Counted from the stretch's first letter, positions 893 to 23,969 are shown. The stretch: 64,000 nucleotides of DNA from an uncultured virus (IMG/VR IMGVR_UViG_3300009376_001605) (IMGVR_UViG_3300009376_001605), one strand, 5' to 3'. Numbers and translations: made by a program. The notes: generated from the sequence alone by a model not told the origin.

Positions 893-3133
893 TTAACCCT
901 GGGCTTTGGCAGAAACATCAACCTGGAACACGTCACCCACAACCGGAGCTGTGTACAACTTCACATCAAAGCCGACTTTAGAGCCGGAAGTGAATGTATA
1001 TTGTGCGATCGTGTAGTCGTTCGCTGCACCAGAGGCCAACAGTAGACCGTTCTGGTAGACACGAAGCGACTCCGGAAGAAGATTCGTTGAACCTTGACCC
1101 ATGAAGTTTGACCCAAGAACACGAAGGCTACCCGTCATAAGCGAGATACCAATATCCCCCGAGCCGCCGGTTGGAGTCGTATCAGCGAGTCCACTGCCGG
1201 CAGTCACTGTACCATATTGTTCCTTCGCGCTCGCTCCGGATGTCACCACAGCACTGTTGTGAATGTAGTTTGGAAGGATGACGGCCGCTGATCCCGAACT
1301 GACAAAGACACCGGCATTTTGGATGCCGAAGTTGGCGTGGAAGTTGTTTCCGCCGCTGTCAGCGTAAAACGCGGTGCCACCCCCGATTCGAATGTTGACC
1401 TGACCCGAAGCATGAGACGCATTAATAACGACAGCATTGCCATCTGCCTCTTGCCCCTCGATGTTAACCGAGGTAACTGCAGTAATATCAATGTCATCAC
1501 CTGCCGTAGCGCCGGAGGAGGTGATATTAATACCACCGCCCGTAGCGCTGATCGAGACCGCGTCTGCAGCATCCTCAGCTGCGCTAATGTTAACGGAGCT
1601 ATTCGCCACGATGTCCAAATCCTCACCCGCAGCTGCACCAGCAACTGTGAGATCCATACCACCAGCAGAGGTCGTGAGGCTAATAGCATCAGCACCTGTA
1701 CCAGCGGATGTAAGCAAGAGGCTTGCATCATTCGCACCTGTCACTGCGATCGTTAAGTCATCAGCATCACCTGCCGAAGCAAGAGTGATGGTTGAAGCCT
1801 GAACTGCGTCGAGTGCAAATCCACCTGCTGTAGCTGAAAGCGCAATGGCATCCGATGCAGTACCAGCAGTATTGGTCAAGGACCACTTCTCACTGCCAGC
1901 TACACTGTGAGGTGTAAACACCATCTCAACTGCACCGTTCTTACCAAGCTTTAGCGTCTGACCGTCGGCGAGCGACGGAGCAATGACCATTGAACCAGCA
2001 CTAACGTCAAGAGACATAGCGTCGGCACCAGTACCAGCGGATGAAAGCAAGACACTAGAATTGCCACCGCCCGTAGAGGCAATAGTTAAGTCCTTGGCAT
2101 CACTACCGCCAGTAGCGATCGAGAAGTTCATATCATCAGCACCGTCGATGGAGACTGTGCTAGTACCATCAATCGTGATCGCGCCGGACGCGTCCAGATC
2201 GAAAGCAGCAGAATCAACATCAATAGCAACGTCAGCTGCTTTACCGATATTAATGCCGGTTGCACCATCGATGTCGATAGTTGTAGCAGCGTCAATGTCG
2301 ATTGCACCTTGTCGACTGTCCATATCTATTGTGCCGGAATCGTTCTTGAGATTTAATCCCGTTGAACCTGACAATGTCAATGCACCGTTTGTTGTTACGT
2401 TAGACGCGCCGACACCATCAATTGAGAACGTGCTTGTGCCATCAATAGTGATCGCGCCGGTAGCATCAATATCAAGTGCTGCGGAGTTAAGATCAACCAG
2501 TTGACCCGTTCCATCAAGACTGAATGTTCCACCCAGTGACTTAAGCGTTAACGTACTGTCAGCAGCTTCACCGATAGTGATAGTACGCGTACCGTCAGTA
2601 CCAATGTTGATATTTTGGTCGACGTCGTCGGCACCAATGCTGATTGTACCAGCTGAAGAGTCGACTGTAACATTGCCAGATGCGTTTACATCGAACGTTG
2701 TTGAGGCAACGGCGACGCCTGCAGCTGATGTTACATCAACCTTGGAACCTGAAAGACGTAATCCGTCAGTTTGTGACCCGTAGATGAAGTTGGCAGTTGT
2801 GCCGGCACCGAACATAATCGAGCCAGAAACGCCCACAATATCTGTATTTGGGTTATACACCAAGCCCCCATCAGATGAAACACCTGAGCCGTCACTGTTA
2901 CCGAAAGCAATTTGATTTGCTGTGACACCGCCACCAGCGACGGAATCGACGTATGCCTTGGTTGCAGCTTCTAGGTTATCTGCAGGTGCTTGACCCAGAT
3001 AGACACGTGATGCTGACAGGACGAGTCCTGCACCGTTGTCAAAAATGATTCCGTTAGCAGCGCCGTTTGAACCTGTGAAGGCTGCAGCACCTTGGAAATT
3101 TAACTGGCGTCCAGTTAATTTTGTTGTAGCCAT
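893..3133 (-). CDS. Fibre-like virion protein with short beta-strand repeats
   Basis: 746 aa A/G/S/T/D-rich; repeats such as LDIDATGAITIDGTST / FDLDASGAITIDGTST; ATKAYVD fibre motif; AAGGAG RBS. Confidence 0.75.
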   Translation of the reverse strand: MATTKLTGRQLNFQGAAAFTGSNGAANGIIFDNGAGLVLSASRVYLGQAPADNLEAATKAYVDSVAGGGVTANQIAFGNSDGSGVSSDGGLVYNPNTDIVGVSGSIMFGAGTTANFIYGSQTDGLRLSGSKVDVTSAAGVAVASTTFDVNASGNVTVDSSAGTISIGADDVDQNINIGTDGTRTITIGEAADSTLTLKSLGGTFSLDGTGQLVDLNSAALDIDATGAITIDGTSTFSIDGVGASNVTTNGALTLSGSTGLNLKNDSGTIDMDSRQGAIDIDAATTIDIDGATGINIGKAADVAIDVDSAAFDLDASGAITIDGTSTVSIDGADDMNFSIATGGSDAKDLTIASTGGGNSSVLLSSAGTGADAMSLDVSAGSMVIAPSLADGQTLKLGKNGAVEMVFTPHSVAGSEKWSLTNTAGTASDAIALSATAGGFALDAVQASTITLASAGDADDLTIAVTGANDASLLLTSAGTGADAISLTTSAGGMDLTVAGAAAGEDLDIVANSSVNISAAEDAADAVSISATGGGINITSSGATAGDDIDITAVTSVNIEGQEADGNAVVINASHASGQVNIRIGGGTAFYADSGGNNFHANFGIQNAGVFVSSGSAAVILPNYIHNSAVVTSGASAKEQYGTVTAGSGLADTTPTGGSGDIGISLMTGSLRVLGSNFMGQGSTNLLPESLRVYQNGLLLASGAANDYTIAQYTFTSGSKVGFDVKLYTAPVVGDVFQVDVSAKAQG

Positions 3134-3282
3134 TATTTTTCTCCTTATTTAAATGGCTTGCCATCCTTTTTCTGACGCGACACGCAACGTGCGTGTGCAC
3201 CGGTACTTTGGAGGTCTACATTGGTATTAGGATGTCTTGGGAATGGAGTGAGGATCAGGATGTGATTTTTATATTTTTATAT

Positions 3283-3510
3283 TCATATCGATGATGCGAG
3301 CCTCTTGAGTGCCTTCAGCGACTCATGGAAGCTCCGCTCATCCGAGTTTAAATATGCGATCATCATCGATTTTGAGAGATTTTTTTCATCTTTAAAGATA
3401 AAAGTCACGATACCTCGATCGTTCTTTCGAAGGTCTGCCAGGACTAACCCTTTGCTCTTGCAGAAGGCAGCCAGGGCCAAATCAGTTGTCTCAAATATCT
3501 GTCCTGGCAA
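3283..3510 (-). CDS. Small DUF5659-like phage protein
   Basis: FETTDLALAAF...VTFIF pattern; 75 aa, TTG start. Confidence 0.55.
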   Translation of the reverse strand: MPGQIFETTDLALAAFCKSKGLVLADLRKNDRGIVTFIFKDEKNLSKSMMIAYLNSDERSFHESLKALKRLASSI

Positions 3511-3651: not shown

Positions 3652-6600
3652 TTAATTGCTTGGCCTGTAGATTGCTGTGATGACATCATCTGAAAAGGGT
3701 GCAAGCCCACTGTTAAAGTTTATCTCACTTCCAGTCAGGGTGTAGTCGTTAGATGAACCCGAAAGCTGGAGAAGCCCGTTTACAAATAGCATTAGATCTG
3801 TGTTATTGATAACAGCATTACCTAAAGCGAATGTCAGGTTTGATCCGTTCTTTGTCCCGGAAGGTTGTTCTCCGAAAACAATAGCCTGTTGCCATACAGC
3901 TTCTGTTGATGATTTAGCTACCAAGACGGAACCGCTAGAGGGGGCATTTGAGGCACTGATGTGTATTGTAGAAGAATTTGTTGCTAGCGTGCCTACACCC
4001 AAAGATGATGTGAGTGCTCCTTGGACGGTAACCCCTCCGGTAAAGACTGATCCTGTCAGAGTTGCGACTACTGAATCATCTACGTCGACTGTGTAGGTAC
4101 TTCCTGCTCCACCGTCTGTGGTTGATAAGCCTGTACCTGCAGTGAACACGCGTTCGCTGGTTAATGATCCTGTCGCTGAAAGCACGAGGTAAGTAGCCGA
4201 CGCGTCGCCGCCGGAGGTTGAATCAGAATTCAGCTGGGATAGAACAACATCGACAACATCGTAGGGGTTAAGAGAGAAGGCGAACGATATCGATCCGGAG
4301 GAGAACACCGTATAGTCAACCGCAGCGGAGTCAACTTGGGCGCTAGTTCCGGATAGAGTGAGCATTCCGTTAAGGTACACATCAATAAGGTCGGGATCAT
4401 AAACAACCTGAGAGAAGTTTGACTGGGGCGTTGAAAACGGGGAATCAGCTGGATGTGATGCAGTGACAATATACCTCTTCTTGTTTCGCCCTTGTATTAA
4501 AGAGAGGTCAGATGCAACTGTAAGACTATTCGACCCTGTGGTGAGCGTAATCCCGGTTCCCGCCTCAATTAGCTTGTAATTTGAAAGTGATCCAGTAGCT
4601 TCGGTAACTACGTAGTGTGCTGCAGAGTCCCCGGAACCTCCGCCTCCGGCGGTTGATGATATCGTAATCTGGCCGTTTGAGGCTGACAGAATTGTTATAT
4701 TTGAACCCGCTGCTAAGTAAGACGAGCCGTCAGCAAGGCGAGTTAATGAACCACTCAGGCCCATTAGGCCGTGCAGCGAACCTGATACTGCAATATCGCC
4801 TCCAAATACCGATGTACCCTTGGTGGATGTGGCTCGAGACCCCACTGCTCCCGAGACAAAGAATGCGATATCGGCTGCCTGTCTTGGTTGCATGGCTCCA
4901 GCATGCATGGTAGAACCTGAAAGAAAGATTACTTGTCTATTGCCTGCTGAATAGTGACCCCCTAGTCTCAGCATCTCCTCGACAGTAGAGCCATTAAAGA
5001 CGTTGAATATTAAGTCGTTAGTATTGGCACCCTTTACAATAGAAGCTCCGACGACTCCTGCAGCGCCTGCGAAGTCCAAAGTACTGTCTTCAGTTTGGGC
5101 CTCTCTTTGTATTCTGATTCCGGGGCTTGAATCCTTCACATGCAGAGTGGTTGCGGGCGCATTTAATCCGATACCCACACTATCAGAGCTACCTTGAACA
5201 AAAAGCGTGTTATCGTCATTACTCGTCTTGACTTGAAAATCAACATCTCCTCCGTCGCCGATAGTCACGATATCCTGCGTGTGCTCTCGAAGAGTTAATA
5301 ATGTTTCGGTGCCTGCAGCAAACGTTATCTGGTCTGCTTCAAGCCTCATGTAGGTATCGGTATCATTTCTATGATAAATGTACTCACCCACCTCCATATT
5401 TCCGCCCACGGAAAGCTTGTAAGCGGGAGTGCTGGTTCCAATACCAACTTTCCCTTCAGTTGTCACAAACACTTGACTTCCAGCAGCAGCACCCTGGTTT
5501 AATGCCAGAGCTCCAGAAACAGTAAGATCTCCGCCGAATACTGCACTTCCTGTTACAGCTGAGCCCCTAGAACCTATAGATCCGCTGACAAAGAAGAAGA
5601 CATCGTTTCCGATATCACTGGGTGCATCTGGTGCTGCAGGGGAGGATTGCCCACCCACAAAGGCTGTAGATCCTGTGGTAAAGATCGAACGGTTCGTGGT
5701 GCTAGAGAAGAATGTTGGCCCAGAATCTCCTCCACCTCCGCCGCCTGTTGAAGAAATAGTAATCTGGCCGTTTGAGGCTGACGTTATTGTGACGTTGGAG
5801 CCCGCAGCGAGATAAGACGTTCCTCCTGTTAGGCGTGTGAGTGATCCAGATAACCCAGAATTGAATTTAGTGGCTCCTGTGAATGTCGACCCGGATATCG
5901 TCGCGACAACGCTGTCGTGTACACTCAGGGTTACTGTGGATCCTGCGCCGGCGTCAGTGACATTGATGCCTGAGCCCGCTGTCAGCACTCTTTCTGAGCT
6001 TAGGGAGCCCGTTGCGGACATCACGACATAAGATGCTGCTCCGTCTCCTCCACCTCCTCCGCCCCCGATGGAAGCAGATAGATAATCACCAATATAAATG
6101 AATCCCTTGGCGAATGCTGGTATTTTCCCAGAATCATAGTCTTGCAAGAATAAGATTCCATTGTAGTAATCAAAGGTCCAGTCGACTTCATCAAGAAGAG
6201 GAATCTCATCTCCGATCTCGTTTGCATTTCCGGAGTCAGCTTCATAAATCTTAAGAATGTAAGGATTGGGAGATTCTTGCGAGAAGTTGGGAGGAATAAG
6301 CTGGAGCCTTCCGAGAGACTCGTGAACAAGGCTTCCGTCTGTGAAAGGAGATTTTCCCTTCTTGGGGTTACTTGACAGGGCTTCATAATTACCTGTAAGG
6401 AAAAGCTTGTAACCATGCGGACCTGCACTTTGACTTCCGTCGCCGCCGCCTCCTGTCGCAGAATCTGCATCGTACGTAGTCCCTGTAATAACAGCAACAG
6501 TGAAGACAACATACTCTGCAGTGCTTCCGTAGATCTGGTAATCTATTCTCGATCCAGAGGCTGGTACATCTTGCCCAAAGATAGTTTGCGTACCCACCTG

Positions 6601-6714
6601 GATATTTGATCCGATGACTTCTTGCGCATCAGACTTAATATTAGATGTATTCGCACGACCAGATAGCTTTTTAAAAGCGTATTGTACTCCGGTTCTGTCT
6701 GTCTTGCCTGCCAT
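3652..6714 (-). CDS. Tail/head fibre-like protein
   Basis: 1020 aa S/G/T-rich; GKVGIGTSTP and SVGIGLNAP fibre repeats; modules shared with 6723..13601. Confidence 0.8.
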   Translation of the reverse strand: MAGKTDRTGVQYAFKKLSGRANTSNIKSDAQEVIGSNIQVGTQTIFGQDVPASGSRIDYQIYGSTAEYVVFTVAVITGTTYDADSATGGGGDGSQSAGPHGYKLFLTGNYEALSSNPKKGKSPFTDGSLVHESLGRLQLIPPNFSQESPNPYILKIYEADSGNANEIGDEIPLLDEVDWTFDYYNGILFLQDYDSGKIPAFAKGFIYIGDYLSASIGGGGGGGDGAASYVVMSATGSLSSERVLTAGSGINVTDAGAGSTVTLSVHDSVVATISGSTFTGATKFNSGLSGSLTRLTGGTSYLAAGSNVTITSASNGQITISSTGGGGGGDSGPTFFSSTTNRSIFTTGSTAFVGGQSSPAAPDAPSDIGNDVFFFVSGSIGSRGSAVTGSAVFGGDLTVSGALALNQGAAAGSQVFVTTEGKVGIGTSTPAYKLSVGGNMEVGEYIYHRNDTDTYMRLEADQITFAAGTETLLTLREHTQDIVTIGDGGDVDFQVKTSNDDNTLFVQGSSDSVGIGLNAPATTLHVKDSSPGIRIQREAQTEDSTLDFAGAAGVVGASIVKGANTNDLIFNVFNGSTVEEMLRLGGHYSAGNRQVIFLSGSTMHAGAMQPRQAADIAFFVSGAVGSRATSTKGTSVFGGDIAVSGSLHGLMGLSGSLTRLADGSSYLAAGSNITILSASNGQITISSTAGGGGSGDSAAHYVVTEATGSLSNYKLIEAGTGITLTTGSNSLTVASDLSLIQGRNKKRYIVTASHPADSPFSTPQSNFSQVVYDPDLIDVYLNGMLTLSGTSAQVDSAAVDYTVFSSGSISFAFSLNPYDVVDVVLSQLNSDSTSGGDASATYLVLSATGSLTSERVFTAGTGLSTTDGGAGSTYTVDVDDSVVATLTGSVFTGGVTVQGALTSSLGVGTLATNSSTIHISASNAPSSGSVLVAKSSTEAVWQQAIVFGEQPSGTKNGSNLTFALGNAVINNTDLMLFVNGLLQLSGSSNDYTLTGSEINFNSGLAPFSDDVITAIYRPSN

Positions 6715-9700
6715 CTTATATCCTAGGTATACGCAACTTGAATTCGAGTCACAGTCCCTGTAAAGTCTTTATCTGAGACTACTCTTATTATAACATATTG
6801 TGGCGTTGACGCCGTCCCATCAAGGGTTTGCCCATTAAAGGTGCAAAGATTTGAAGCTCCTGACCCATCAACGGTAGCATCCAAGTCTCCACTAAGCCCG
6901 CCATCACCATCAGCTACAGGACCTGCACCTGGTGAGGGCTTTGCTAGATCTAAATAACCTGTCTTGCTCGGTATCTTGACATCACAATGAATGTTTTTAT
7001 TTGCACCTAAGCTTCCTGAGTTCGCCCCTGATCTTCCTACCAGAGTTGCATCTCCGTAAAGGGTTATAGTAATTTGGGGTGTATCAGAAGTAGTATTATT
7101 TTTAAAGTATCTCTCATATTCTCTGTGGCTTATTCCTAACGAGCTATAGTTTGGATTACCCTCTGGGGCCTGTAGAGATCCACCATCATCGGAAGATCTG
7201 TAGTCTCCTCCAAGAACCCCAGAAATCGGTGATATTATCTGATCGTTGTACACAAGCATTCCCGCGTAATGGCCTAGATCAGAACCGTTGTTCATTGAAG
7301 CAGAAGGTTGCCACTCAGCTGAATCTGCAATAACTGAATTTTGTGTGCTGTATGTGCCTGACTTGATCCTGTACTTCTCGCTGGTGAAATACTCGTTATT
7401 ATTTAAATCAGAAGTGTTGGAGCTTGTAAATACTAAGAAGACCCCCTTGGCTAGCCCAGAGCTAGTGATATCGCTCTTTAGCGGATGCTTGACTCTAACA
7501 GTTCCTGTGACAGAGTACGCGGTTGATCCATACGGTCCCGGGAGAGATTCACTTCGGCTGAATGATATCGAGTGCGTGACAAAAATTGGCAAGGTTTCAG
7601 AGTTTGAAACGCCTGTTTCAAGGGATGCAAGAGTAGAATTGTCCCCAGAGTCGATCTGGTTGGTGACGCCCGAACCTGTTATCATAATGCTGTTGATAGT
7701 GAGATTAGTTTCAGTCGGTGTTGTTACAGCTGTTGACAAAGCCGAGTACACGTTCTTGTATCCGTTATCAGACTGATATCTTATTGAAGAAGTGCAATTG
7801 ACAAAGTATGCGATGCCACTTTGATAATACGGACTAGTTCCTCCAAAATTACCCATTGAAGCACTGCTTATACTAAGGGCATTGCTATCATTGTCGTTAA
7901 CCCACTCAACATAAGTTGTTTCTCTATCTGACCCAGTTACTGTGTGGACGACTCTGGCGTAGTTCCATCCATTTCTCTGGTCGCTTGTTCCAACACGATA
8001 TTTTGCAGTTCTGTAAAGTTTAGTGTAATCTTTGACACCGTTGCTAAATTCTGCAGGTGAGAAAGTGCTTACGTTGATAAATCCAGATCCATTACTTCCG
8101 GTTAGAACGGCGGTTCCAGATCCGGGGCTTCCGGTTCCTGTCGATCCTGTAAGGTAAAGTGTGTGGACTGTGCTCCCATTAACTTCAAGCCTAAGGGATC
8201 CTGTCCCTGCCTGATCAAAAGAATTTGCAACATAATTGGGACTATCTGCTGCGACTTGCGGATTGAGATCTCCTTCAAAGATGTTAGTTCCGTCAAAAGT
8301 ACCTAGCCGGAAATTATTACTGCTGGTCGCGACCTGGTAAGTTCCATTAACATCAACAGCAGATGCAAGTCCTGCCGAAGCTGCAACACTGGTATACCCC
8401 GATATTGCCTTTGATGATCCAAATGAAAGCTTGGATGTTACGCCCACTTCCTCTGAGTCGAGCCTTGAAAGCGTGGGTGCTGACTCTGTTGTACCTGTCC
8501 CAGCACCGAATGTTACTTCGATCTCACTTATATTCCCGGTCCAGGCTTCATCAGCCTCCACCCTCATTAGCAAATATTCGTTATTTGCAATTCCCTGTAT
8601 TCCAAAGTTAGCGTTATTGTTAGCATTTAAAGAGCTGTCAAATGATCCATCAAGGCATCCATCATTATCTTCATAGCTCCCAAAACTAAAGGCAGAAGAA
8701 AGATCCATCCACCCTGTAGAGCCAATTGACCCTGACGCCATTTTTAAGAATATTCTCAACCTTGAAGAATTTAGAGATGTTGAAGGGCCTACTATAGTTC
8801 CGCTGCCGCTGACTGCTATCTTTGCGGTATACTGTGTTGATCCAGTCTCATTCTTGAAATGACGATAGAAAGTGCGCTGACCTGAGACACCTGAATAGTT
8901 TGGGTTTCCTGCAGGAGCATACTGGATGCTTCCACCGTCCGCAGTATTTCGGAAATCTCCGCTTAAAAGCGTATTCGTAGGAGAAAGAAGTGACGAAGAA
9001 AAGAATTGCAGACCATCGGTGTGTCCACCGTTACTAGCAGTCATAAATACTTCAGAGTCCCACACATTAGAAGCATTAGTTACAGCTGCCTGATTAGCGT
9101 ATGTACCTGATATTACGCGGTAAGTCTCTTCTTGGAACTTCTCTCTCTGTGAGGTAGAGCTTCCTGAAAGACTGAAGAGCAAGATTCCATCAGTTACTGT
9201 ATTCCCGGCATCTGATAAGTTCGCCTTAAAGGGATGAGTAACATTAACACCCGCTGTTACTGAGCTTGTAAGCATCGTCGTTGATGTGATGCTACCTGCC
9301 CCTGTCAGGTGGAGAACTTTTGTGTGATCTTCGCCGGCGCCAATAGTGGGCTTCGCTTGTGAGGCAATCGAGCAGTTGTGCGTCTCAAAAGAGATTGCTG
9401 TATTATCATAGACGTTTCTGTACGCATTTGAAACCGCGACTTTGTAGCTGACGTTTCCAGAGATGTAGTATTCTACTCCTGAGAGATGGCGGCTCCCCGA
9501 AAGCTGCGGCGTGAGAGAATTGGAAGAAGCAGCTAATGCGTCGGAATTAGAATCATTTACCCACTCAATATAGTTGGTTGTAGACGTGGCCCCATCAGCA
9601 TAATGAATGACCCGTGCATAGTTCCAGCCATTTCGCTGACTATCTGCTGCTATCAAGAATCTTCCGGTTCGGTGCTGGAAGAACGTAAAGTCTGTTCCGT

Positions 9701-12700: not shown

Positions 12701-13360
12701 GGAGGTTACCCTGTGAGTAGTTTCCATCCCTGTTATGAATTATCGCGGCGCCAATATTATCAGCTGCAGTGTCTACAACAAATCCGATACCAACACTTTT
12801 GTTAGTTGTCGTGCTACCATGCCTAAGCACAGCCTGATAATCTGTAGGATCGTTAAGATCATTATTGGGATCTACAGCATTTGAGACTTCTAGCTTGGCC
12901 TCGGGAGAAGACGTACCTATCCCTACTAGATCAGATGTAGTTGTCAGGTAAGCACTATTTGAAGACCGTGACCAGACGTTTGAAGATCCCTCGCCGCCTC
13001 CAGAGGATCCAGTCGTAAAAATTGCCTGTATGATGCTTCCAGATGGTGGCGAGGGATTGAAAATTACTTGATTAGACGCCTGGGCATAAGTGTAATCATT
13101 GGCAGATCCAGAAAGCCTCAGTATGCCGTTGACATAAACAGCCATTGCCGCGGCATCATTCGGAGTATTTGTTAGAGCGTACGTCGTCGTGGTGGCGCCG
13201 GAGTCTGTGCTAAGCTCTTCCTTTACCAGAACTTCGCTATCTTGTGCTATTCCCGTAATAGTAACTGACCCGTTGGACGAAGAGCTAATGGTTATATTAG
13301 TTCCCGCTATAAGATAGCTAGTACCATCCGTTAATCTTGTCAAAGATCCACTTAAGCCAA
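4655..13360 (-). repeat. Dispersed ~35-aa coding repeat (GxSGSLTRLxDGxSYLxAGxNxTIxSxSNGxxTI), 7 copies in two genes
   Basis: Copies near 13255-13360, 11335-11440, 11065-11175, 10770-10880, 10425-10530, 5755-5860, 4655-4765 (approximate). Confidence 0.9.
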
Positions 13361-17523: not shown

Positions 17524-18907
17524 CTCTTCTCAGGCCTCCAAACGCGATGGAGTCCACGTTTAATCCATTGTTTGTAAATATAAATCCTGTTCGTGCGGAT
17601 TTAAAACCGTCTGGGATTAGATCTTCTGTGGATCCTGACACATTGTTAAGCAGCGCAGTCTTAAAGTCAGCATCTAAATTAAGACTGTTTATCTGGGCCT
17701 TTGTAAACATTCTGCTCTCAAAATCTGTCTCATCGAAGGGTACTGGGCCGTAAGTCTCATTAAAGTATAATTTCTCTCCCAGGGCATGTCTTCTATTAGG
17801 AGCAAAAACTGTACCTGATGCTAGAGACATACTGGCAGGATTACCTGTGATTCCAATACCTGCAACTCCAAATCCATCTACGAAAGGAGAATTGCCAAAC
17901 ACAGTCATTGGGATTAAGGGCTTAACCGTGCTTGTACCCTTCATATAGAAAGAATTTCCCTCCATGATATCCGCTTTGATTCCTGTTCGGGTATCAGATC
18001 CTATTGGATCAAGGGATCGAGAGAAAATCTTTGGATCAAATGCTGATCGGACGCTTGATAAAACTTCCGCAGTCCCGTTAAGGATGTTTCCTAGAATATA
18101 TCGCTTATCTGCCTGTATAACTTCATACTCTAGATCGACAAATGATGAAGTTGCTATACTACCCTGAGCAAAAGCAAAAAGCCCTTCGGTTGCACCGATG
18201 TTTTCCATGTTTGGCTTCTCTATGAAGGGCCAAGCAAATTCTGAGAGCGTGGACTGCCCAAAAATATATTTTTCTTCAATGCCTGTATTCTTTGGATCAA
18301 AAGTTGGAAGTGCTGCCTGGGCGCGCTGATTATCTGTTAGTATTGAAACACCTTGACGATAAGGATCAATCTGGGCTGTGAAGCTCCCGGAGCCCCCACC
18401 AATAACGTACTCTTTAGCATGCGGGTTATATTTCTGGTCGCGACCATCCTGACCACCTGAGAAGCTCCCTGTTAGGGGAGACAGGGTCACGTTCAAGCTG
18501 CTTGAGAGAATTATAGTATTTCCAGCCTTACCGACTTCAGCTTGGGTGAGGGTCAATATGGTGGTCGAGGTCCCTGAAGTGATGATTGTTCCATTGTGGC
18601 CTGCTGAAGCTTCGATGCATGTTGTCAGATCATCTCGGGCCTGGGTCGCAGATGTTGCTCGGAACTCTCTTGCTGCAGCGTCGAGTGAAGAAGCGACTGT
18701 ATAGGTCCTGCTTAGCTGGGCAGTATTTACTAATGTTATAGTGGCTCCGATAGACCCTGTCCCGGTAAACGTTAGTGTTGAAGTAGCAGCGACAGGTGGT
18801 ATGCCCCCGTAGAGTCTACGAACAGGAAACTGGGCGCTTGAACCCGTTATCTGGTTCTCTTTTGATGAATTATATTGGAATTTTGATGTATTTTTACCTG
18901 TCTTCAT
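17516..18907 (-). CDS. Putative structural protein
   Basis: 463 aa; ATSTLTFTG...LTLTQAEVGKAGNT...FSGG segment like virion Ig/sheath-insertion domains; overlaps both neighbours. Confidence 0.6.
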   Translation of the reverse strand: MKTGKNTSKFQYNSSKENQITGSSAQFPVRRLYGGIPPVAATSTLTFTGTGSIGATITLVNTAQLSRTYTVASSLDAAAREFRATSATQARDDLTTCIEASAGHNGTIITSGTSTTILTLTQAEVGKAGNTIILSSSLNVTLSPLTGSFSGGQDGRDQKYNPHAKEYVIGGGSGSFTAQIDPYRQGVSILTDNQRAQAALPTFDPKNTGIEEKYIFGQSTLSEFAWPFIEKPNMENIGATEGLFAFAQGSIATSSFVDLEYEVIQADKRYILGNILNGTAEVLSSVRSAFDPKIFSRSLDPIGSDTRTGIKADIMEGNSFYMKGTSTVKPLIPMTVFGNSPFVDGFGVAGIGITGNPASMSLASGTVFAPNRRHALGEKLYFNETYGPVPFDETDFESRMFTKAQINSLNLDADFKTALLNNVSGSTEDLIPDGFKSARTGFIFTNNGLNVDSIAFGGLRRDA

Positions 18908-21900
18908 CAGAACTTGCTCGCTCTTCCTTCAATTAGCTGTAATAGATACTGGCCCTTAAGATCAGTCCTAAAGTCTTCGCCGATATACTGTCCATTATAC
19001 TGGTACTGAACTTTGGCTCGCTCTAGACTGTGAGGCTCTATAACAAAGTTAACACCTAAGAAATTAGAATTTTTTGGAACGAGTTGTTCAAGCATGGTTC
19101 CAACAGATGTATCAAACCACCTAAAGAATTCTAAAAATTGCTTAAAGCTTACTTTTTCCTCTAGCTTGTTAAAGTAATTATCACGCAAAACCTGGAGTTG
19201 GGGATAATCAGCTGAAAACTGTAAATTGGCTCCGCCAAGAGCGTCATCTATCTCGTCAAGCGTTCCAAACATAGTGACAATATCTTCGTTTAACGCAGAC
19301 GTTACTGAGAAATCTATAGAGAACCTTGCGTCATCCTGGGGCTGATCGTTGGGAGGTATCTCATAAAGAGGAGCTTTTGCAGCGCTAAAATCAGTAATAT
19401 TAGAAGAGCTTACAAAGCTTCGCGGTCGAATCTTGTTAGAGTTTTCAAGATCATCAAATGCGGGCGGAAGTGTAGTGAAGTTGACTTTCTCAAAATTAAA
19501 CAGTGTCTTAGAAGCTTCAAAAGCAGATCCTGTGCCATGAATATTGTTTTGCGAGAAGTCTGTCAAGATAATCTGGCCGGAGGAATCTGATGCTGAGATC
19601 GGCTGGTCTATGGAAAGATCCATTCTTAGCCTTTCAAAAGCACCTGTAATCGCTGTGTTGAAATTAAAATTCTTTCTAGGGGCTTCAACGCCTACAGAAG
19701 TTGGATTCCTTACATGTTCTTTCCACTCAGGTTCAGTGAGCGCTTTTGACCAAAATCGGACCTGAGCTACTTCGCCGCTGAAATTTGTTATCTGGGCCTG
19801 ATCATCAATATCTGGCCCGTTTAAGAATAAATTTGCAGATGTATCCAGAGACTGGGATCCGATGACAATAAACGATCCTGAGGTGTTTAGGGATCCTGAT
19901 TTTTGGAAAACTACTTTTGACGCAGTGCCTGTCGGGTCTTCCTTGTAAAAAGAAGCTGTCGTGTAAGACTCAAATATCCTGCCACCTTCTTGCTTGGCAC
20001 ATCTCAAGAAGTACGATGATGAGAGATGAGTTCCTGCCTGGTCGTTTCTTATCCTGCCAAAGGAAAGATTCCATTTTTCACCATCCATCACATCTGGCCC
20101 AGGAAGCGTTATCTCAAGAGGCCTCTTTGCAGCGGCAGTATAGGCATCTGTGGTAGCCCGAAGAAAGAGCTTAACAGAAGGAGACGCGCCGGACATCACT
20201 AGCAAGTTGGCGGCGACACCGTGCTTGGTAGAAGGTGCTGTTGTTCCTGTTATGTGGATTCTGGCCGCTGATTGTGTAAGCGCAAAGCTACCCGATACTG
20301 GGAATCGATATATTCCCTCATAAGACCAAGACCCAGATGTTAACAATCCGTCGGAGAGATCATTGCTTACTCCGTGGTAGCCACCAAAGGTTGTATTTGG
20401 CTGAACAAATGTACCTACGGGCTCAGGAAAACCTACAGACCTTCTCGATCCTGTCAAAAAGTCAGCTATTAACCGAGGAGATGATGTTGTGAATCCTTGC
20501 GCATCGATGGTCTCATTTCGGGTATTGTTCATTGACCCACTAAAGTCTATAGAAGACTGTATGGTTGATCGATTGGTTCTCATCTGAGCGAAGCTAAATT
20601 TTTTAGGGCCGCCGTATTCTTTGATTCTAACTAAGATATCAGGATCCAGGCCAGTAGCTCTCAAAGCTGCTTTGACACTGTGGATCGTACCTTTCGAACT
20701 AATGATATCCTTTATGTTTACAAGGAACCTTCTAAGGATCTGGTTCCTGATAGACTGCAGGCTTTCTGCTATGTTAGTATAGGTTCCCTTTACATTTTCT
20801 CCGTGAAAGTACTGCTCTGCGGTCGCTTTTGTAAGAATAGGTGGCGGTTCAAAACCGTAATGATTCACGAGGAACATAATGAATGAATCTGATAGCCCTT
20901 CATCGCTTGTGTATGCAGGATCTAAGACTTTAGAGAACTGGTCTGTGGATGTTTTAAGCTCGTCAAAAAACTTAGCCCACACAAAAAGCATTGCAGTTAG
21001 AACCTGTGAGCTGCCTAGATCACCAGATCCCGGAATTGAAGATCCGGTGTACGGCAGTATCAGGTCACCGTCTGTAGTGTTCATGGCAAAGTAATTTTTG
21101 CCCTCATCAAAATAGTGTGATGGAACAAGCCTTGTTATAAGGTTTGGATTCGCATTATCATATGTGCTAGCAGATGCCAGCAACTTTTCGTTAAGATCGA
21201 TAACTTTTTCAAATTGTGGGAAAAGCACCGGATTGAATTTTCTTTCTTCAGACGAAAGAGCTGCCGGATAACTTGATGTAACCCTGTTATAAACCGTGTA
21301 GTTAGATACACGAGAATGCAGGGATTTTCCGCTGCTATCTAAGACAATTGAATTATCTCCGAAACTAGATGAGGGCTCATTAAACTTATAGTAAAGACGA
21401 AGCGGATCTGATGCGAATACATTTCTCTCTTGATTGGACTTTAATTGATGCTCAGTTCTTGCTTCTTGAAAAATTCTCACTTCGTCCAAAGAGCCAGAGA
21501 ATGTCCTGCTGGGGGTGAAGTTTGCGCTATCATGCAAGATTCCCTGGTGAATGCTGCCGGTTCCAATAAAGAGAGATGAATTATTGAAGTCTATGGGCCC
21601 GAAAATCGCAGTATTGGAAGAAGTCCCAACAAGCTTAGAATTAAGATATAGCTTTAACCTGCCCTCATCTTTAGATCTGTCGTAAACAGCAGCAATGTGG
21701 CTAAATTCATTTTTAGGGATAGAAGCTGATACTATTAAGTTGGCGGACCCAGATCGTATTGCAAACATCACTTCGGCAGCCGTCGTAGATACGTTAGATT
21801 TCATAGCCATCGTGTAGCCGTTTGTACTACCAGAAACTTTTTGAAAAAGTACTTCATTACCGTTGGCTAGAGGTGCAGGGAAAATCTGAGTTTCTACAGT

Positions 21901-22419
21901 ATAGCTTTTCTCATCCAGGGCGAGCACGCTCTTTCCAGATCGATCTGATGAGAAGTCGACAAAATCTGCACCTGAAAAGTCTTTTACTTCGATGTATGTC
22001 CCAGAATCTGCTGCTCCGGACGTCGATCCGGAGAATACGAGTGCACCTAAATTTGTAGGAAACTGTGAAAGAACGTAATTATCAAAACCCGTAAGGCCGT
22101 TCAAAAACTTTTCTAATTCTTTTCGTGATCCATCGAAAGGATAGTGATTAATAAGACTGTTAAAAGTGACATTGACATTAGCTTGGGCAGAATTAAAAAA
22201 TGTATGATTTTGAAACTTGCTAAAATCAACCGGGATTTGTTGCGTTGATTTTATTCCCGTACTTTCATCGTAAATGAAATAGTCTTCATAAGATATCCCA
22301 GCATCAAGATCGGCCCGGGTAATGAATCTAACTACTCCTGCTCCACCGCCTTCATCCCTCACGACGGAAGGTCTAAAAACGCCTGGGCGCTGGTTTTGTA
22401 ATCTGTCTTTCGAAGACAT
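18907..22419 (-). CDS. Baseplate wedge-like protein with two LamG-like domains
   Basis: FSHIAAVYD...FSGSLDEVRIF and FSGEVAQVRFW; KGTIHSVKAAL resembles tail protein I/gp7 motif; downstream of baseplate J. Confidence 0.7.
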   Translation of the reverse strand: MSSKDRLQNQRPGVFRPSVVRDEGGGAGVVRFITRADLDAGISYEDYFIYDESTGIKSTQQIPVDFSKFQNHTFFNSAQANVNVTFNSLINHYPFDGSRKELEKFLNGLTGFDNYVLSQFPTNLGALVFSGSTSGAADSGTYIEVKDFSGADFVDFSSDRSGKSVLALDEKSYTVETQIFPAPLANGNEVLFQKVSGSTNGYTMAMKSNVSTTAAEVMFAIRSGSANLIVSASIPKNEFSHIAAVYDRSKDEGRLKLYLNSKLVGTSSNTAIFGPIDFNNSSLFIGTGSIHQGILHDSANFTPSRTFSGSLDEVRIFQEARTEHQLKSNQERNVFASDPLRLYYKFNEPSSSFGDNSIVLDSSGKSLHSRVSNYTVYNRVTSSYPAALSSEERKFNPVLFPQFEKVIDLNEKLLASASTYDNANPNLITRLVPSHYFDEGKNYFAMNTTDGDLILPYTGSSIPGSGDLGSSQVLTAMLFVWAKFFDELKTSTDQFSKVLDPAYTSDEGLSDSFIMFLVNHYGFEPPPILTKATAEQYFHGENVKGTYTNIAESLQSIRNQILRRFLVNIKDIISSKGTIHSVKAALRATGLDPDILVRIKEYGGPKKFSFAQMRTNRSTIQSSIDFSGSMNNTRNETIDAQGFTTSSPRLIADFLTGSRRSVGFPEPVGTFVQPNTTFGGYHGVSNDLSDGLLTSGSWSYEGIYRFPVSGSFALTQSAARIHITGTTAPSTKHGVAANLLVMSGASPSVKLFLRATTDAYTAAAKRPLEITLPGPDVMDGEKWNLSFGRIRNDQAGTHLSSSYFLRCAKQEGGRIFESYTTASFYKEDPTGTASKVVFQKSGSLNTSGSFIVIGSQSLDTSANLFLNGPDIDDQAQITNFSGEVAQVRFWSKALTEPEWKEHVRNPTSVGVEAPRKNFNFNTAITGAFERLRMDLSIDQPISASDSSGQIILTDFSQNNIHGTGSAFEASKTLFNFEKVNFTTLPPAFDDLENSNKIRPRSFVSSSNITDFSAAKAPLYEIPPNDQPQDDARFSIDFSVTSALNEDIVTMFGTLDEIDDALGGANLQFSADYPQLQVLRDNYFNKLEEKVSFKQFLEFFRWFDTSVGTMLEQLVPKNSNFLGVNFVIEPHSLERAKVQYQYNGQYIGEDFRTDLKGQYLLQLIEGRASKF

Positions 22420-23969
22420 TAGGGATCTATCCTAAAAGTTCCTCCGACATTTTTGAATATTTGAGTTGAGTTATCTCTCTTTATCTTCACATCAATTGTG
22501 AAAACTCTTCCCATGTCCAGGTCGTCGGTAAAAATATCAAAATACATTCCTTTTGAATCGGTTGACATAAGGGTACCATTATATCCGTCGCCATCATCAA
22601 AAGGAATAACTACATCGTCTGAGTATGTGTCTCTAATTCTATAATAGCACTTGGTTAAAATCATGCTAGATCGATAAAGCGGAAGCTTAAGGGCTTTTAC
22701 TTGTTCGTCTGCATCAAAAGCAACCATTCTTAGCCTAACTTTTTGTCCAGACTTATAAGCTCCCTTAAGATTTGCTATATTCAGGGTGTACCTAACAGGA
22801 TCATTATCAAATGCTGTTGTATCAGAAGCCATAACTTTAAGGCTTCCCGTATGGTAACCTACTGTTTCATCTATAGACTGCCAAAACGTTGTGAATGTTA
22901 CTGATCCGCTGTCCCTTATGAAATCCTCAAGCGTATTGTTATTGTCTACAGAAGAAGAACCAAAGCTATCAATTGCAAATGAAGCTGAGTATACGCCGGT
23001 GGAAAACAAAGTTCCTCCAGGGTAAGAGTGCTGCGATGCCAATACTACTTTCTGGTACGACCCCGTCTGCAATTTTAAATTCATGCAATCGTCGCCTGAG
23101 ATCTGGGTTAGGGCGGCGCCTGATACTACGTTTGCCGCATGCCCTCTTTCAAAATTGTTTAGAAAGATTGATCCTGAGAGGTTAAAAAAGAAGGACTTAT
23201 GATAATCTTGAATAGTATCGTCATATCTAACGTCTAGAGAGGGTTGTTTTCTTGTGTTGCTATTGTGGCGAGATGCAAAGCGCTTAACAAATCTAGATTT
23301 TGTATCTGTCTCTTGCGTTCCTGAAAAGGATATTCTAAATCCAAAATCAGGTATCTGGTTTGCTAATGTAGCAGAAACTACCTTTGTCACATCGACAGAA
23401 AGATCCTCAGTACCATCTAAGAAAGTCTGCTCGCTATACAAGAAAGCGACACCGTCGCCATCGTTTAAGTTACCAGACGATATTATATCCAGATCCGCTG
23501 CACCCAAAAGGCCTTGCTTATTTGCCCCTGTAAGGTGCCAGGTCGTGGGAGATGCATTTGTCACAGATGATGTGATAAAGTTGGCGGCGTCGATGTCTTG
23601 AAACTTTACAACATCTCTTCCTACTCCTTCATCAAATGATCGTGAAAGAGGAAAGACTGCAACCTTGAAATTAGAAGGAAGAGTTTGACCTCCGTACACA
23701 TCGTGAAGCTTTAAGTCACACCTAAAGGAAGTGCTGTCTATGTCAAGTATGCTTCCCGTGAGGGCGCGCAGGGGATTCAAGTCAAATTTTATTAGAATCC
23801 GAGTAAGCTCAATAGGAGTGTCATCACCAGCAATCTTATTCTCATTATAAAGCTTAAAAAGATCTAGAGTAGCTCCTTCGCCTACATTGGAATCAGTTGC
23901 CCTAAAACTATTACGAATAATCTTATTAGTAATGTAAGTGTCTTTAGTAGCCTTTAGTCGTCTATACAT
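22419..23969 (-). CDS. Baseplate-associated structural protein (DNRLRE-like N-terminus)
   Basis: ATKDTYI...TRILIKFDL...FASR...PSLDVRYDD pattern; between baseplate genes. Confidence 0.6.
   Translation of the reverse strand: MYRRLKATKDTYITNKIIRNSFRATDSNVGEGATLDLFKLYNENKIAGDDTPIELTRILIKFDLNPLRALTGSILDIDSTSFRCDLKLHDVYGGQTLPSNFKVAVFPLSRSFDEGVGRDVVKFQDIDAANFITSSVTNASPTTWHLTGANKQGLLGAADLDIISSGNLNDGDGVAFLYSEQTFLDGTEDLSVDVTKVVSATLANQIPDFGFRISFSGTQETDTKSRFVKRFASRHNSNTRKQPSLDVRYDDTIQDYHKSFFFNLSGSIFLNNFERGHAANVVSGAALTQISGDDCMNLKLQTGSYQKVVLASQHSYPGGTLFSTGVYSASFAIDSFGSSSVDNNNTLEDFIRDSGSVTFTTFWQSIDETVGYHTGSLKVMASDTTAFDNDPVRYTLNIANLKGAYKSGQKVRLRMVAFDADEQVKALKLPLYRSSMILTKCYYRIRDTYSDDVVIPFDDGDGYNGTLMSTDSKGMYFDIFTDDLDMGRVFTIDVKIKRDNSTQIFKNVGGTFRIDP

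What the first reader, a model, noticed from the sequence alone, without database searches (positions are those of the whole stretch)
893..23969. [S/T]-G-S tripeptide enriched in virion proteins: possible glycosylation sequon
Manual counts of SGS/TGS: about 13 in the 1170-aa baseplate protein, about 14 in the 1299-aa LamG protein, 5 in the 516-aa and 5 in the 463-aa proteins, and many more in the fibres, usually after a hydrophobic residue (FSGS, VSGS, LTGS, ITGS), with SAS/SSS variants. They occur in unrelated globular contexts, not only in repeats. gp6, gp25 and the spike have almost none, and the enzymes at 30-64 kb only a handful. Inference: convergent selection for a short modification site on exposed virion surfaces, matching the adjacent GT cluster.
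Basis: partly seen in the sequence, partly recalled or inferred. Interest (0 to 1): 0.8.

Follow-up and report, generated by a model that had tools for sequence, protein, structure and literature searches.

The report
Ser/Thr-Gly-Ser tag on phage tail proteins
The outward-facing tail, baseplate and fibre proteins of this large uncultured aquatic phage and its whole clade carry the tripeptide Ser/Thr-Gly-Ser four to six times too often, probably as the attachment signal for sugars added by the phage's own conserved pair of sugar-transferases, though no chemistry shows this yet.

Summary
The seven distal virion proteins hold 94 [ST]GS against 24 expected (0 of 500 shuffles reach it), and the permutations GSS and SSG are flat. 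Inner baseplate proteins, enzymes and T4 tail proteins show little or no excess.

The excess is clade-wide. In 143 related viral contigs, some of them counted in two sets, it begins right after gp6 (O/E 1.7-9.6). Pooled, SGS and TGS are the two most enriched tripeptides, and only S or T is tolerated at position 1.

What travels with the motif is not the variable 25-kb sugar cassette but a core block, nuclease-GT1a-GT1b, which is among only 26 genes shared with Flavobacterium phage immuto and Microcystis phage Mel-JY01. One nested relative, jumbo phage LR756508, keeps GT1a and a sugar cassette but lacks GT1b, and it lacks the excess.

A pure beta-turn explanation fits poorly: the five modelled sites sit in five different structural contexts.

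No chemistry exists, burial could not be measured, and the association rests on one gain and one loss.

This scan reached the same reading earlier on at least ten other genomes of the clade.

The parts
22419..23969 (-). 516-aa outer baseplate protein directly after gp6, built of several beta-sandwich domains. It has 5 [ST]GS sites, at residues 71, 265, 302, 354 and 374.
   Evidence: 5 sites vs 0.64 expected. AF2 model pLDDT 82, pTM 0.82. Fold matches are Ig/FN3/CBM-like multidomain adhesins. 33 orthologs carry 2-9 sites each.
18907..22419 (-). 1170-aa LamG-containing large baseplate protein (gp7-like position), with 13 sites.
   Evidence: 13 vs 1.8 expected, 0 of 2000 shuffles reach it. Laminin_G_3 E 1.2e-19. 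20 orthologs carry 6-17 sites. SGS at residues 695-697 is kept in 19 of 20.
17516..18907 (-). 463-aa virion protein of no known family, with 5 sites.
   Evidence: 5 vs 0.96 expected. No Pfam or PHROG hit.
13624..17523 (-). 1299-aa LamG-containing virion protein, with 14 sites.
   Evidence: 14 vs 2.9 expected. Laminin_G_3 E 1.7e-10.
6723..13601 (-). 2292-aa fibre-like protein, with 32 sites. Some lie in a repeated ...SGSLTRLTDG[TS]SYL... unit; many lie outside it.
   Evidence: 32 vs 10.5 expected. Contexts are listed.
3652..6714 (-). 1020-aa fibre-like protein, with 18 sites.
   Evidence: 18 vs 4.4 expected. No match among 50,697 phage records.
893..3133 (-). 746-aa fibre-like protein, with 7 sites (the weakest excess of the seven).
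   Evidence: 7 vs 2.5 expected; 29 of 2000 shuffles reach it.
23979..26309 (-). gp6-like (614 aa) and gp25-like (160 aa) inner baseplate wedge proteins. They serve as an internal negative control and mark where the excess starts.
   Evidence: PHROG baseplate wedge and Pfam GPW_gp25 hits. 1 and 0 sites vs 0.55 and 0.08 expected.
31164..32429 (-). GT1a, a 421-aa GT4-type (Pfam Glycos_transf_1) glycosyltransferase. It is the first of the conserved pair, and its stop overlaps the GT1b start by 4 bases.
   Evidence: PF00534 E 3.6e-10. Orthologs are found in immuto, Mel-JY01 (split into 2 ORFs) and LR756508. E-x7-E is kept in 16 of 16 aligned orthologs. The best solved relative is chlorovirus GT B736L, 3oy2, E 1e-9.
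30001..31167 (-). GT1b, a 388-aa GT4-type glycosyltransferase. It is the second of the pair and is the gene whose presence or absence tracks the motif.
   Evidence: PF00534 E 6.4e-8. Orthologs are found in immuto and Mel-JY01 and in G001, G002, G015 and G017. It is absent from LR756508 by six-frame protein and profile searches and by hmmsearch at E<=10. E-x7-E is kept in 17 of 17.
32484..33308 (-). PD-(D/E)XK nuclease, a conserved neighbour of the GT pair. Its role in this system is unknown.
   Evidence: PF12705 E 5.4e-24. Syntenic orthologs in immuto, Mel-JY01 and LR756508 and in 11-12 subclade loci.
33327..57982 (-). Variable sugar-synthesis cassette with no multi-spanning membrane protein. 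It holds an epimerase, an NDP-sugar dehydrogenase, a NeuB-type nonulosonate synthase, a CMP-transferase, GDP-mannose 4,6-dehydratase, a NodU-type carbamoyltransferase, methyltransferases, HAD phosphatases and further GT1/GT2 genes.
   Evidence: Pfam and NCBIfam hits. No Wzx/Wzy/priming-GT-like hydrophobic profile. Only the epimerase has a BLAST hit in immuto and none of the cassette has one in Mel-JY01.

Best explanation
[ST]-G-S, preferably flanked by hydrophobic residues with no Pro, Glu or Lys at +1, is a recognition tag placed on the outward-facing parts of the virion: outer baseplate, fibres, sheath insertions and the capsid extension. The most likely reader is the phage's own soluble GT4-type pair GT1a/GT1b, with GT1b as the specificity-bearing member.

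Proposed mechanism:
- One of the pair O-glycosylates a hydroxyl of the tag in the cytoplasm, before or during assembly.
- The lineage-variable cassette upstream supplies and adds the outer sugars. In this phage these would be a CMP-nonulosonic acid, a GDP-6-deoxyhexose, and methyl and carbamoyl groups.
- The result is a glycan-coated particle.

Shown here: the ordered motif and its specificity, its restriction to outer virion proteins, its clade-wide conservation, the core status and synteny of the GT pair, and the joint absence of GT1b and the motif in one nested lineage.

Inferred: that any sugar is attached, which residue carries it, which GT acts first, and what the coat does.
For: 1. Strength and order of the signal.
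- 94 vs 24 expected in the window.
- Pooled over 197 proteins lying after gp6 in 49 related loci: SGS 529 vs 95 and TGS 343 vs 65, the top two of all tripeptides with an expectation of at least 20.
- At position 1 only S (5.6x) and T (5.3x) are enriched; A is 1.0, N 1.0 and D 0.9.
- At position 3 S is 5.6x, T 2.0x and N 1.4x. In the middle G is 5.6x, A 3.3x and S 2.0x.
- The equivalence of S and T with exclusion of Asn and Asp is what a hydroxyl acceptor predicts, not what turn propensity predicts.

2. Location.
- Proteins before and including gp6 in the same loci are flat: SGS 27 vs 37, TGS 31 vs 30.
- Capsid protein sites (residues 160, 202, 209, 357) all lie before the HK97 core. All six sheath-2 sites lie at 291-636, outside the conserved C-terminal core.
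- The immuto sheath has 7 vs 1.3 but its tape measure 0 vs 1.1.

3. Not a generic tail-protein habit. T4 gp7-12, wac and gp34-37 hold 7 vs 8.4.

4. No single structural context. The 5 modelled sites are post-helix, strand start, a 2-residue hairpin turn, a helix-strand junction and mid-strand.

5. Selection. An aligned ortholog keeps the tag in 43-48% of pairs, against 12-13% for random tripeptides staying identical. Replacements are mostly SGT, SGA, SAS, SSS or TSS.

6. The GT pair is core.
- Only 26 G000 ORFs have BLAST hits in both Mel-JY01 and immuto. They are virion and replication genes plus PhoH, the nuclease, GT1a and GT1b.
- The hosts lie in two phyla, so a conserved acceptor is more likely phage-made than host-made.
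- The pair lies 4-8 kb upstream of gp6 in all 12 of 12 informative subclade contigs. GT1a is beside GT1b in 72 of 77 GT1b-seeded loci.

7. Natural contrast. LR756508 is nested in the clade on the gp6 tree. It keeps nuclease-GT1a and a large cassette but has no GT1b and no excess: genome 110 vs 79.9, virion-like set 25 vs 16.9, both sheaths 0. At the two best-kept tag columns of the big baseplate protein (15 of 18 and 12 of 18 relatives) it reads N-G-D and K-A-V.

8. DNA is an unlikely target. The digested DNA of immuto 2-6A shows dA, dC, dT and one 7-deazaguanine derivative only (PMC10516641, passages read). ThyA-type genes are not clade-wide.

9. The cassette has no flippase, polymerase or priming-GT-like membrane protein.
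Against: - No chemical evidence exists that any virion protein of this clade is glycosylated. I found none in the papers searched.
- The co-occurrence is phylogenetically one gain and one loss, so it could be coincidence. LR756508 is also a jumbo phage whose tail proteins may have changed for other reasons.
- LR756508 keeps a rich sugar cassette without the motif, so the cassette does not need the motif.
- Lineage-private sites occur only at the chance rate (O/E 1.0 and 0.78). Ongoing gain is therefore not evident within the two conserved families.
- The best-conserved site of the 516-aa protein is mid-strand in the model and might be poorly accessible on a folded protein. Solvent exposure could not be computed.
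- Most characterised GT4 enzymes act on sugars, lipids or small molecules (the names of the solved relatives). Neither GT shows a recognisable protein-binding domain.
- The non-virion ORFs of the window show a slight excess too (10 vs 5.3).
Confidence: 0.5

Rival explanations
1. The tag is a purely structural habit of this clade's beta-rich outer tail domains. It would be a tight turn or bulge with Gly and small polar neighbours, inherited with the folds and unrelated to the glycosyltransferases.
For: - Hydrophobic residues flank the tag on both sides.
- One modelled site is a textbook 2-residue hairpin turn (T302-G-S).
- Most of the surplus sits at inherited positions, and private sites are at the chance rate.
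- The proteins are beta-sandwich rich.
Against: - The 5 modelled sites fall in 5 different secondary-structure contexts, including mid-strand and helix ends.
- The classical turn formers are not enriched in the same frame: NGS 1.0, DGS 0.9, SGN 1.4, SGD 0.7.
- Non-homologous proteins all show the excess (fibres, LamG proteins, sheath insertions, capsid extension), while T4 tail proteins do not.
- In LR756508 a kept tag column retains the Gly but swaps both hydroxyl residues, giving N-G-D.
Confidence: 0.2
2. The tag is read by something other than a glycosyltransferase. Candidates are another modification of Ser/Thr (for example phosphorylation), or a phage assembly chaperone or protease that recognises a short hydrophobic-flanked peptide.
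For: - S/T equivalence at position 1 fits any hydroxyl-directed enzyme.
- The window encodes a PrkA-type protein (63215-63994) and an APH-type kinase fold (45670-46503).
- Pro and charged residues are depleted next to the tag, as in many enzyme recognition sites.
Against: - Neither kinase-like gene is among the 26 ORFs shared with both isolates. No other modifying enzyme is in that core, which does hold GT1a and GT1b.
- The loss of GT1b coincides with the loss of the motif.
Confidence: 0.12
3. The GT pair and cassette act on something else, such as the host envelope, a small molecule or phage DNA. The tag's co-occurrence with GT1b would then be a coincidence of shared ancestry.
For: - Large phage sugar-gene clusters are usually read as remodelling of the host surface (PMC12801897, passages) or as DNA glycosylation (PMC12619734, passages).
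- A nuclease sits beside the pair.
- The association rests on one gain and one loss.
Against: - There is no flippase, polymerase or priming GT in the cassette.
- A pair conserved between phages of a cyanobacterium and of a Flavobacterium is hard to reconcile with a host-specific acceptor.
- Immuto DNA shows no glycosylated nucleoside.
- This rival leaves the motif itself unexplained.
Confidence: 0.15

Closest known systems
Virion O-glycosylation of mycobacteriophages by phage-encoded glycosyltransferases (Freeman et al. 2023, Cell Host Microbe). The paper is not held; I know it from the passage in PMC12619734 and from recall.
   Same: Phage-encoded soluble glycosyltransferases are proposed to decorate the phage's own exposed virion proteins in the cytoplasm.
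   Different: There the glycans sit on C-terminal ends of the capsid and tail-tube subunits (passage). Here the candidate sites are internal tripeptides scattered through baseplate, fibre and sheath proteins. A defined short motif is proposed here, the phages are T4-like aquatic myoviruses, and nothing is shown chemically.
GtfA/GtfB two-protein O-GlcNAc transferase of serine-rich-repeat adhesins in streptococci and staphylococci (recalled, not from a call)
   Same: - A GT4-family enzyme with an adjacent GT-B paralogue glycosylates Ser/Thr of a secreted or surface protein in the cytoplasm.
- Further variable glycosyltransferases then extend the glycan.
- The acceptor is rich in S-x-S patterns.
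   Different: - Both phage GTs keep the E-x7-E motif, whereas GtfB is recalled as non-catalytic.
- Neither phage GT has GtfA/GtfB among its solved relatives by sequence search, done with single sequences at E<=0.01, the GT1b profile at E<=0.01 and the GT1a profile at E<=0.0001.
- The acceptors here are isolated tripeptides in folded domains, not long low-complexity repeats.
- Heterodimer formation could not be tested.
Maf-type flagellin nonulosonic-acid O-glycosylation (PMC11339370, passages read)
   Same: Ser/Thr on surface-exposed parts of an assembled filament protein are glycosylated in the cytoplasm. The modified residues lie near hydrophobic residues. A NeuB/CMP-transferase pathway is present in this window.
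   Different: No conserved sequon is known for Maf enzymes, whereas here the motif is sharp. No Maf-family hit appeared in the Pfam scan of the 35 ORFs at 30-64 kb. The nonulosonate genes belong to the variable cassette, not to the core.
Chlorovirus and giant-virus self-encoded capsid or fibril glycosylation; solved chlorovirus GT B736L (PDB 3oy2)
   Same: The virus carries its own soluble glycosylation machinery and sugar-nucleotide pathways. B736L is the best solved relative of the GT1a profile (E 1e-9).
   Different: These are eukaryotic viruses. Their glycan attachment, as recalled, is mostly N-linked at atypical sites. The target of B736L is not established as far as I recall.

Membership tests
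GT4-type glycosyltransferases (Pfam Glycos_transf_1, GT-B fold) | Match to PF00534 above the curated cut-off | tested here: met
   GT1a scores 40.1 bits and GT1b 32.8 bits, against a cut-off of 26.4.
GT4-type glycosyltransferases (Pfam Glycos_transf_1, GT-B fold) | Conserved E-x7-E motif in the C-terminal domain (the meaning of the motif is recalled) | tested here: met
   GT1a: E285 is invariant in 16 of 16 and the consensus reads NEGFGLPTLEAM. GT1b: E273 is invariant, E281 is kept in at least 90% of 17, and the consensus reads GEGFGLPILEAA.
Phage virion O-glycosylation (mycobacteriophage type) | Phage-encoded glycosyltransferases conserved with the virion genes | tested here: met
   GT1a and GT1b are among the 26 ORFs shared with both isolates. 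The pair is syntenic in 12 of 12 informative contigs.
Phage virion O-glycosylation (mycobacteriophage type) | Glycans chemically detected on virion proteins | not testable with these tools
   There are no proteomic data for this clade in the papers searched.
Phage virion O-glycosylation (mycobacteriophage type) | Sites at the C-terminal ends of capsid and tail-tube subunits | tested here: not met
   The candidate sites are internal and lie in baseplate, fibre, sheath-insertion and capsid N-terminal-extension regions.
Glycosylation sequon (a short motif that directs a glycosyltransferase) | Ordered motif enriched in the candidate substrates over composition, permutations and non-substrates | tested here: met
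.
Glycosylation sequon (a short motif that directs a glycosyltransferase) | Occupancy by a glycan, and loss on mutation of the motif | not testable with these tools
   This needs mass spectrometry and mutagenesis.
Glycosylation sequon (a short motif that directs a glycosyltransferase) | Surface exposure of the sites | tested here: inconclusive
   The model gives only secondary structure. Of the five sites, 4 are at loop, turn or strand-end positions and 1 is mid-strand. No coordinates were available.
GtfA/GtfB-type two-protein O-glycosyltransferase | Adjacent pair of GT-B genes, translationally linked | tested here: met
   The two genes overlap by 4 bases at window 31164-31167. They are adjacent in 72 of 77 loci.
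GtfA/GtfB-type two-protein O-glycosyltransferase | One partner non-catalytic; stable heterodimer | tested here: not met
   Both keep E-x7-E.
Maf flagellin glycosyltransferases | A Maf-family protein | tested here: not met
   No Maf-family hit among the 35 ORFs scanned against Pfam at E<=0.001. Four adjacent ORFs (38275-42339) remain without any family.
Beta-turn structural motif (x-G-[polar]-x) | One shared secondary-structure context, and interchangeability with other turn formers | tested here: not met
   There are five different contexts. NGS, DGS, SGN and SGD are at 0.7-1.4x while SGS and TGS are at 5.3-5.6x.

The most novel reading that the evidence does not exclude
[ST]-G-S is a true cytoplasmic O-glycosylation sequon read by a phage GT4 enzyme (GT1b). 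If so, a large and globally distributed clade of aquatic T4-like phages, infecting at least Bacteroidota and Cyanobacteria, coats its tails, fibres and sheath with self-made, lineage-variable glycans that include nonulosonic acids. It would be the first sharply defined short sequon for a soluble protein O-glycosyltransferase of bacteria or their viruses, and a ready tool for glyco-engineering.
Probability: 0.45. Interest if true: 0.85.

Novelty: new variant of a known kind. Interest (0 to 1): 0.7.

Why it matters
Phage particles are usually treated as bare protein. Self-glycosylation of virions by phage enzymes is so far documented chemically only for mycobacteriophages, as far as my searches and recall go.

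If this reading holds:
- Hundreds of environmental phage genomes carry a simple, countable signature of a sugar coat. At least 588 IMG/VR stretches encode a GT1b relative.
- The large 'LPS-like' gene islands of aquatic phages would have a different explanation from host-surface remodelling.
- The open question of what directs bacterial-type O-glycosyltransferases to their sites becomes directly testable, because two cultured members (Flavobacterium phage immuto and Microcystis phage Mel-JY01) and one natural GT1b-less relative exist.

If the reading fails, the motif remains an unusually sharp, unexplained signature of outer virion proteins.

Tried and rejected
- DNA-level cause. Rejected: 73 different 9-mers encode the 94 sites, and X-G-S is flat for every X other than S and T.
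- Low-complexity patches. Rejected by local shuffles. A dipeptide-based (Markov-1) expectation still leaves a 2-fold excess, 529 vs 266 and 343 vs 177.
- Generic tail-fibre property. Rejected with T4.
- DNA similarity and protein searches among 50,697 phage records. The structural region and the 1020-aa fibre have no match. gp6 finds 8 records and GT1b 5 records, and every full-length match (6 of the 8 gp6 records, all 5 GT1b records) is a member of the clade; the other two gp6 records are one distant Bacillus phage listed twice. No independent lineage carrying the GT pair could therefore be tested.
- Hydroxymethylase companion for DNA glycosylation. ThyA-type genes are present in 2 of 4 genomes only.
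- PHROG and Pfam annotation of the seven proteins. Nothing beyond LamG and weak sub-threshold hits.
- Fold search of the 516-aa model. Only generic Ig-like multidomain matches with low TM scores.
- Second structure prediction (1170-aa protein, alignment A3).
- Complex prediction of GT1a with GT1b.
- The Freeman et al. paper could not be read because it is not held.
- The careful tree search did not finish, so the quick tree was used.
- Literature. No paper with 'Mel-JY01'. No listed paper linking Ser-Gly-Ser to bacterial or phage O-glycosylation: the 12 listed of 1,906 have 0 occurrences of the term.

Full report
**What the window is.** The window is the reverse strand of bases 30028-94027 of a 235,681-base IMG/VR virus record, estimated about 70% complete. 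All genes run on the window's minus strand. In transcription order the window holds:
- a PrkA-type gene and a PIN-PhoH gene;
- a roughly 25-kb block of sugar-nucleotide and glycosyltransferase genes (57982 down to 33327);
- a PD-(D/E)XK nuclease and two Glycos_transf_1 genes (32429-30001);
- an inner baseplate module ending in gp25-like and gp6-like genes (26309-23979);
- seven large proteins (23969-893), two of which have LamG domains.

The rest of the record holds terminase, portal, a capsid protein with a 366-residue N-terminal extension, two sheath paralogues and further fibres.

**Checking the observation.**
- Against whole-protein shuffles the seven proteins hold 94 [ST]GS against 24.0 ± 4.8, and 0 of 500 shuffles reach 94.
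- Shuffling only within blocks of 10, 20 or 40 residues gives means of 26-29 and a maximum of 46.
- The order of the letters matters: SGS 52 vs 13.3 and TGS 42 vs 10.5, but GSS 17 vs 13.3 and SSG 16 vs 13.3.
- The 94 sites are written with 73 different 9-base words.
- The six inner baseplate proteins hold 1 vs 1.26. The 35 ORFs at 30-64 kb hold 10 vs 5.3, a slight excess.
- Over the whole record, 233 ORFs hold 160 vs 66.9. The surplus outside the window lies in the capsid protein (4 vs 1.0), sheath 2 (6 vs 1.4), a head-tail adaptor-like protein (3 vs 0.4), a fibre (6 vs 1.9) and two proteins of unknown family (3 vs 0.7, 5 vs 1.0).
- Three large proteins just beyond the window (992, 1546 and 680 aa) hold none.
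- All four capsid sites lie before the HK97 core, and all six sheath-2 sites lie outside the conserved C-terminal core.

**Is it a general property of tail proteins?** No. T4 gp7-gp12, wac and gp34-gp37 hold 7 vs 8.4.

**Is it a property of the clade?** Yes.
- gp6 finds Microcystis phage Mel-JY01, Flavobacterium phage immuto and the uncultured jumbo phage LR756508 at 32-34% identity.
- Of the 80 viral contigs found with a gp6 alignment, I examined 74. The six dropped have gp6 cut at a contig end. Fifty have at least 800 residues after gp6, and all 50 show O/E 2.9-8.8 there, while the proteins before and including gp6 are near 1.
- A second set seeded from the jumbo phage's gp6 gave 45 such loci with 883 vs 150.9 after gp6 and 61 vs 66.6 before.
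- A third set seeded from GT1b gave 48 loci with 568 vs 97.0 after and 100 vs 127.9 before, O/E 1.7-9.6. Several of its contigs repeat those of the first set.
- In the two cultured phages the excess is confined to a few proteins. Mel-JY01 has 13 proteins with three or more sites (112 vs 30.7), and all the others together hold 28 vs 25.1. Immuto has 15 such proteins (96 vs 23.0), and the others hold 21 vs 23.7. Choosing proteins by site count biases the split somewhat.
- In immuto the sheath holds 7 vs 1.3 and the tape measure 0 vs 1.1.

**Anatomy of the motif.** The figures below come from 197 proteins (113,194 residues) lying after gp6 in 49 loci.
- SGS (529 vs 95) and TGS (343 vs 65) are the two most enriched of all tripeptides with an expectation of at least 20.
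- Position 1 accepts only S (5.6x) or T (5.3x). A, N and D are at 0.9-1.0.
- Position 3 is S (5.6x); T is 2.0x after S and 1.3x after T.
- The middle residue is G (5.6x), then A (3.3x), then S (2.0x).
- Flanks are hydrophobic at -2, -1 and +1. Asp, Glu, Lys and Arg are depleted there, and Pro is nearly excluded at +1 (0.1x).

**Evolution of the sites.**
- Among 33 orthologs of the 516-aa protein (mean pairwise identity 43%) the sites occupy 31 alignment columns, with the five best-occupied columns kept in 25, 22, 20, 19 and 15 sequences.
- Among 20 orthologs of the 1170-aa protein they occupy 54 columns, with 19, 17, 15, 15, 14 and 14 at the top and 26 singletons.
- An aligned partner keeps the tag in 43-48% of pairs, against 12-13% for a random tripeptide staying identical.
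- Where a site is lost, it is mostly replaced by SGT, SGA, SAS, SSS or TSS.
- Sites private to fewer than 10% of sequences occur only at the chance rate (O/E 1.0 and 0.78).
- The surplus is therefore inherited and maintained rather than continually created within these two families. The fast-changing fibre proteins have few or no homologues in other loci, yet they carry the excess too.

**Structure.**
- The AlphaFold2 model of the 516-aa protein (32-sequence alignment; pLDDT 82, pTM 0.82) is a chain of beta-sandwich domains.
- Its five sites lie in five different contexts: just after a helix (T71), at a strand start (S265), in a two-residue hairpin turn (T302-G-S304), at a helix-to-strand junction (S354) and in the middle of strand 371-380 (T374, the best-conserved site).
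- Coordinates are not given to me, so burial could not be measured.

**The candidate writer.**
- The only glycosyltransferases shared with immuto and Mel-JY01 are the two next to the baseplate module. GT1a (421 aa) and GT1b (388 aa) are 30-33% identical to their orthologs. They are preceded in all three phages by the same PD-(D/E)XK nuclease, although in the two isolates the block lies far from the baseplate genes.
- Of the sugar cassette only an epimerase is shared, and only with immuto.
- Only 26 ORFs of the record have BLAST hits in both isolates. These are virion and replication genes plus PhoH, the nuclease, GT1a and GT1b.
- The pair lies 4-8 kb upstream of gp6 in 12 of 12 informative contigs of the window's subclade.
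- Both enzymes keep the E-x7-E signature.
- The cassette has no multi-spanning membrane protein, so no flippase, polymerase or priming transferase.
- Published nucleoside analysis of immuto 2-6A DNA shows dA, dC, dT and a formylated 7-deazaguanine only, with no glycosylated base (PMC10516641, passages read).
- A soluble, clade-conserved transferase pair in phages of two bacterial phyla points to a phage-made acceptor.

**A natural contrast.**
- The jumbo phage LR756508 (484 kb) groups with four contigs that all show the excess (SH-aLRT 90). That group lies inside a starred 18-row set that also holds the window's subclade. This is the quick tree; the careful search did not finish, and the root is on a very long T4 branch.
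- LR756508 keeps the nuclease-GT1a block and a large cassette with GT29, GT25, GT10, sulfotransferases and methyltransferases.
- It has no GT1b by six-frame protein search, by profile search, or by hmmsearch at E ≤ 10.
- It also has no excess: 110 vs 79.9 over 474 ORFs, 25 vs 16.9 in 20 virion-like proteins, and 0 in both sheath genes.
- Its ortholog of the large baseplate protein has 2 sites where 18 relatives have 4-16. At the two best-kept tag columns it reads N-G-D and K-A-V.
- Conversely, Mel-JY01 has GT1a split into two ORFs, an intact GT1b and a strong excess.
- This singles out GT1b, but it is one loss event.

**Reading.**
- I put about 0.9 on the motif being a selected sequence feature of outer virion proteins.
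- I put about 0.5 on it being the acceptor tag of the GT1a/GT1b pair, with the variable cassette supplying outer sugars.
- The main rivals are a structural habit (0.2), an unrelated role of the transferases (0.15) and another reader of the tag (0.12).
- The closest known systems are mycobacteriophage virion glycosylation, the GtfA/GtfB system of serine-rich adhesins, and Maf-type flagellin glycosylation. For Maf enzymes no sequon is known, but hydrophobic neighbours are noted (PMC11339370).
- The 'moraphage' lineage described from aquatic metagenomes has four putative glycosyltransferase families in its core (PMC12619734, abstract and passages). It may overlap this clade; I could not check this.
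- This scan had already reached the same reading on at least ten other genomes. I saw those notes only after my own analysis.

Noticed in passing
window 32484-33308 (-): The PD-(D/E)XK nuclease beside the GT pair carries 2 [ST]GS against 0.1 expected. Both are kept in three close relatives (L006, L008, L009). It is the only non-virion protein of the window with more than chance.
   Followed up: no
window 38275-42339 (-): Four consecutive ORFs (386, 296, 329 and 370 aa) in the middle of the sugar cassette have no significant Pfam or NCBIfam family; the only hit is one far-sub-threshold NCBIfam match to a Leptospira O-antigen family (E 4e-4). They are Ser-rich (8.5-12.4%) and lie next to the NeuB/CMP-transferase genes, so they are candidates for novel transferases.
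   Followed up: partly
L096 5442-6933 (Mel-JY01 record 83441-84932): The GT1a ortholog of Mel-JY01 is annotated as two ORFs (190 + 302 aa) split near residue 150 of GT1a. This could be a frameshift, a sequencing error or a genuinely split enzyme.
   Followed up: partly
L215 1432-16042 (LR756508 record about 305-320 kb): The jumbo phage's cassette after GT1a holds a GT29 sialyltransferase-like gene, two GT25 genes, a GT10 fucosyltransferase-like gene and two sulfotransferases. This is an animal-glycan-like set that is unusual for a phage.
   Followed up: no
G000:C1:128960-135232 (L003 15161-18292 and L004 129-3233): There are two tandem tail-sheath paralogues of 1043 and 1034 aa, each with long insertions before the conserved C-terminal core. 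LR756508 also has two genes of 824 aa at 202-208 kb, but only the second matched the window's sheath proteins.
   Followed up: no
G000:C1:94238-103920 (L002 211-9893): Three large ORFs (992, 1546 and 680 aa) directly after the fibre genes have no family, no [ST]GS and almost no [ST][AS]S. This is a sharp contrast with their neighbours, and their role is unknown.
   Followed up: partly
window 6723-13601 and 3652-6714 (-): A repeated unit ...G[LI]SGSLTRLTDG[TS]SYL... recurs in both fibre-like proteins. The first 125-137 residues of the 2292-aa protein are also found in locus L018.
   Followed up: no
window 58004-59317 (-): A PIN-PhoH fusion (437 aa). Its PhoH part is one of the 26 ORFs shared with both isolates.
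   Followed up: no
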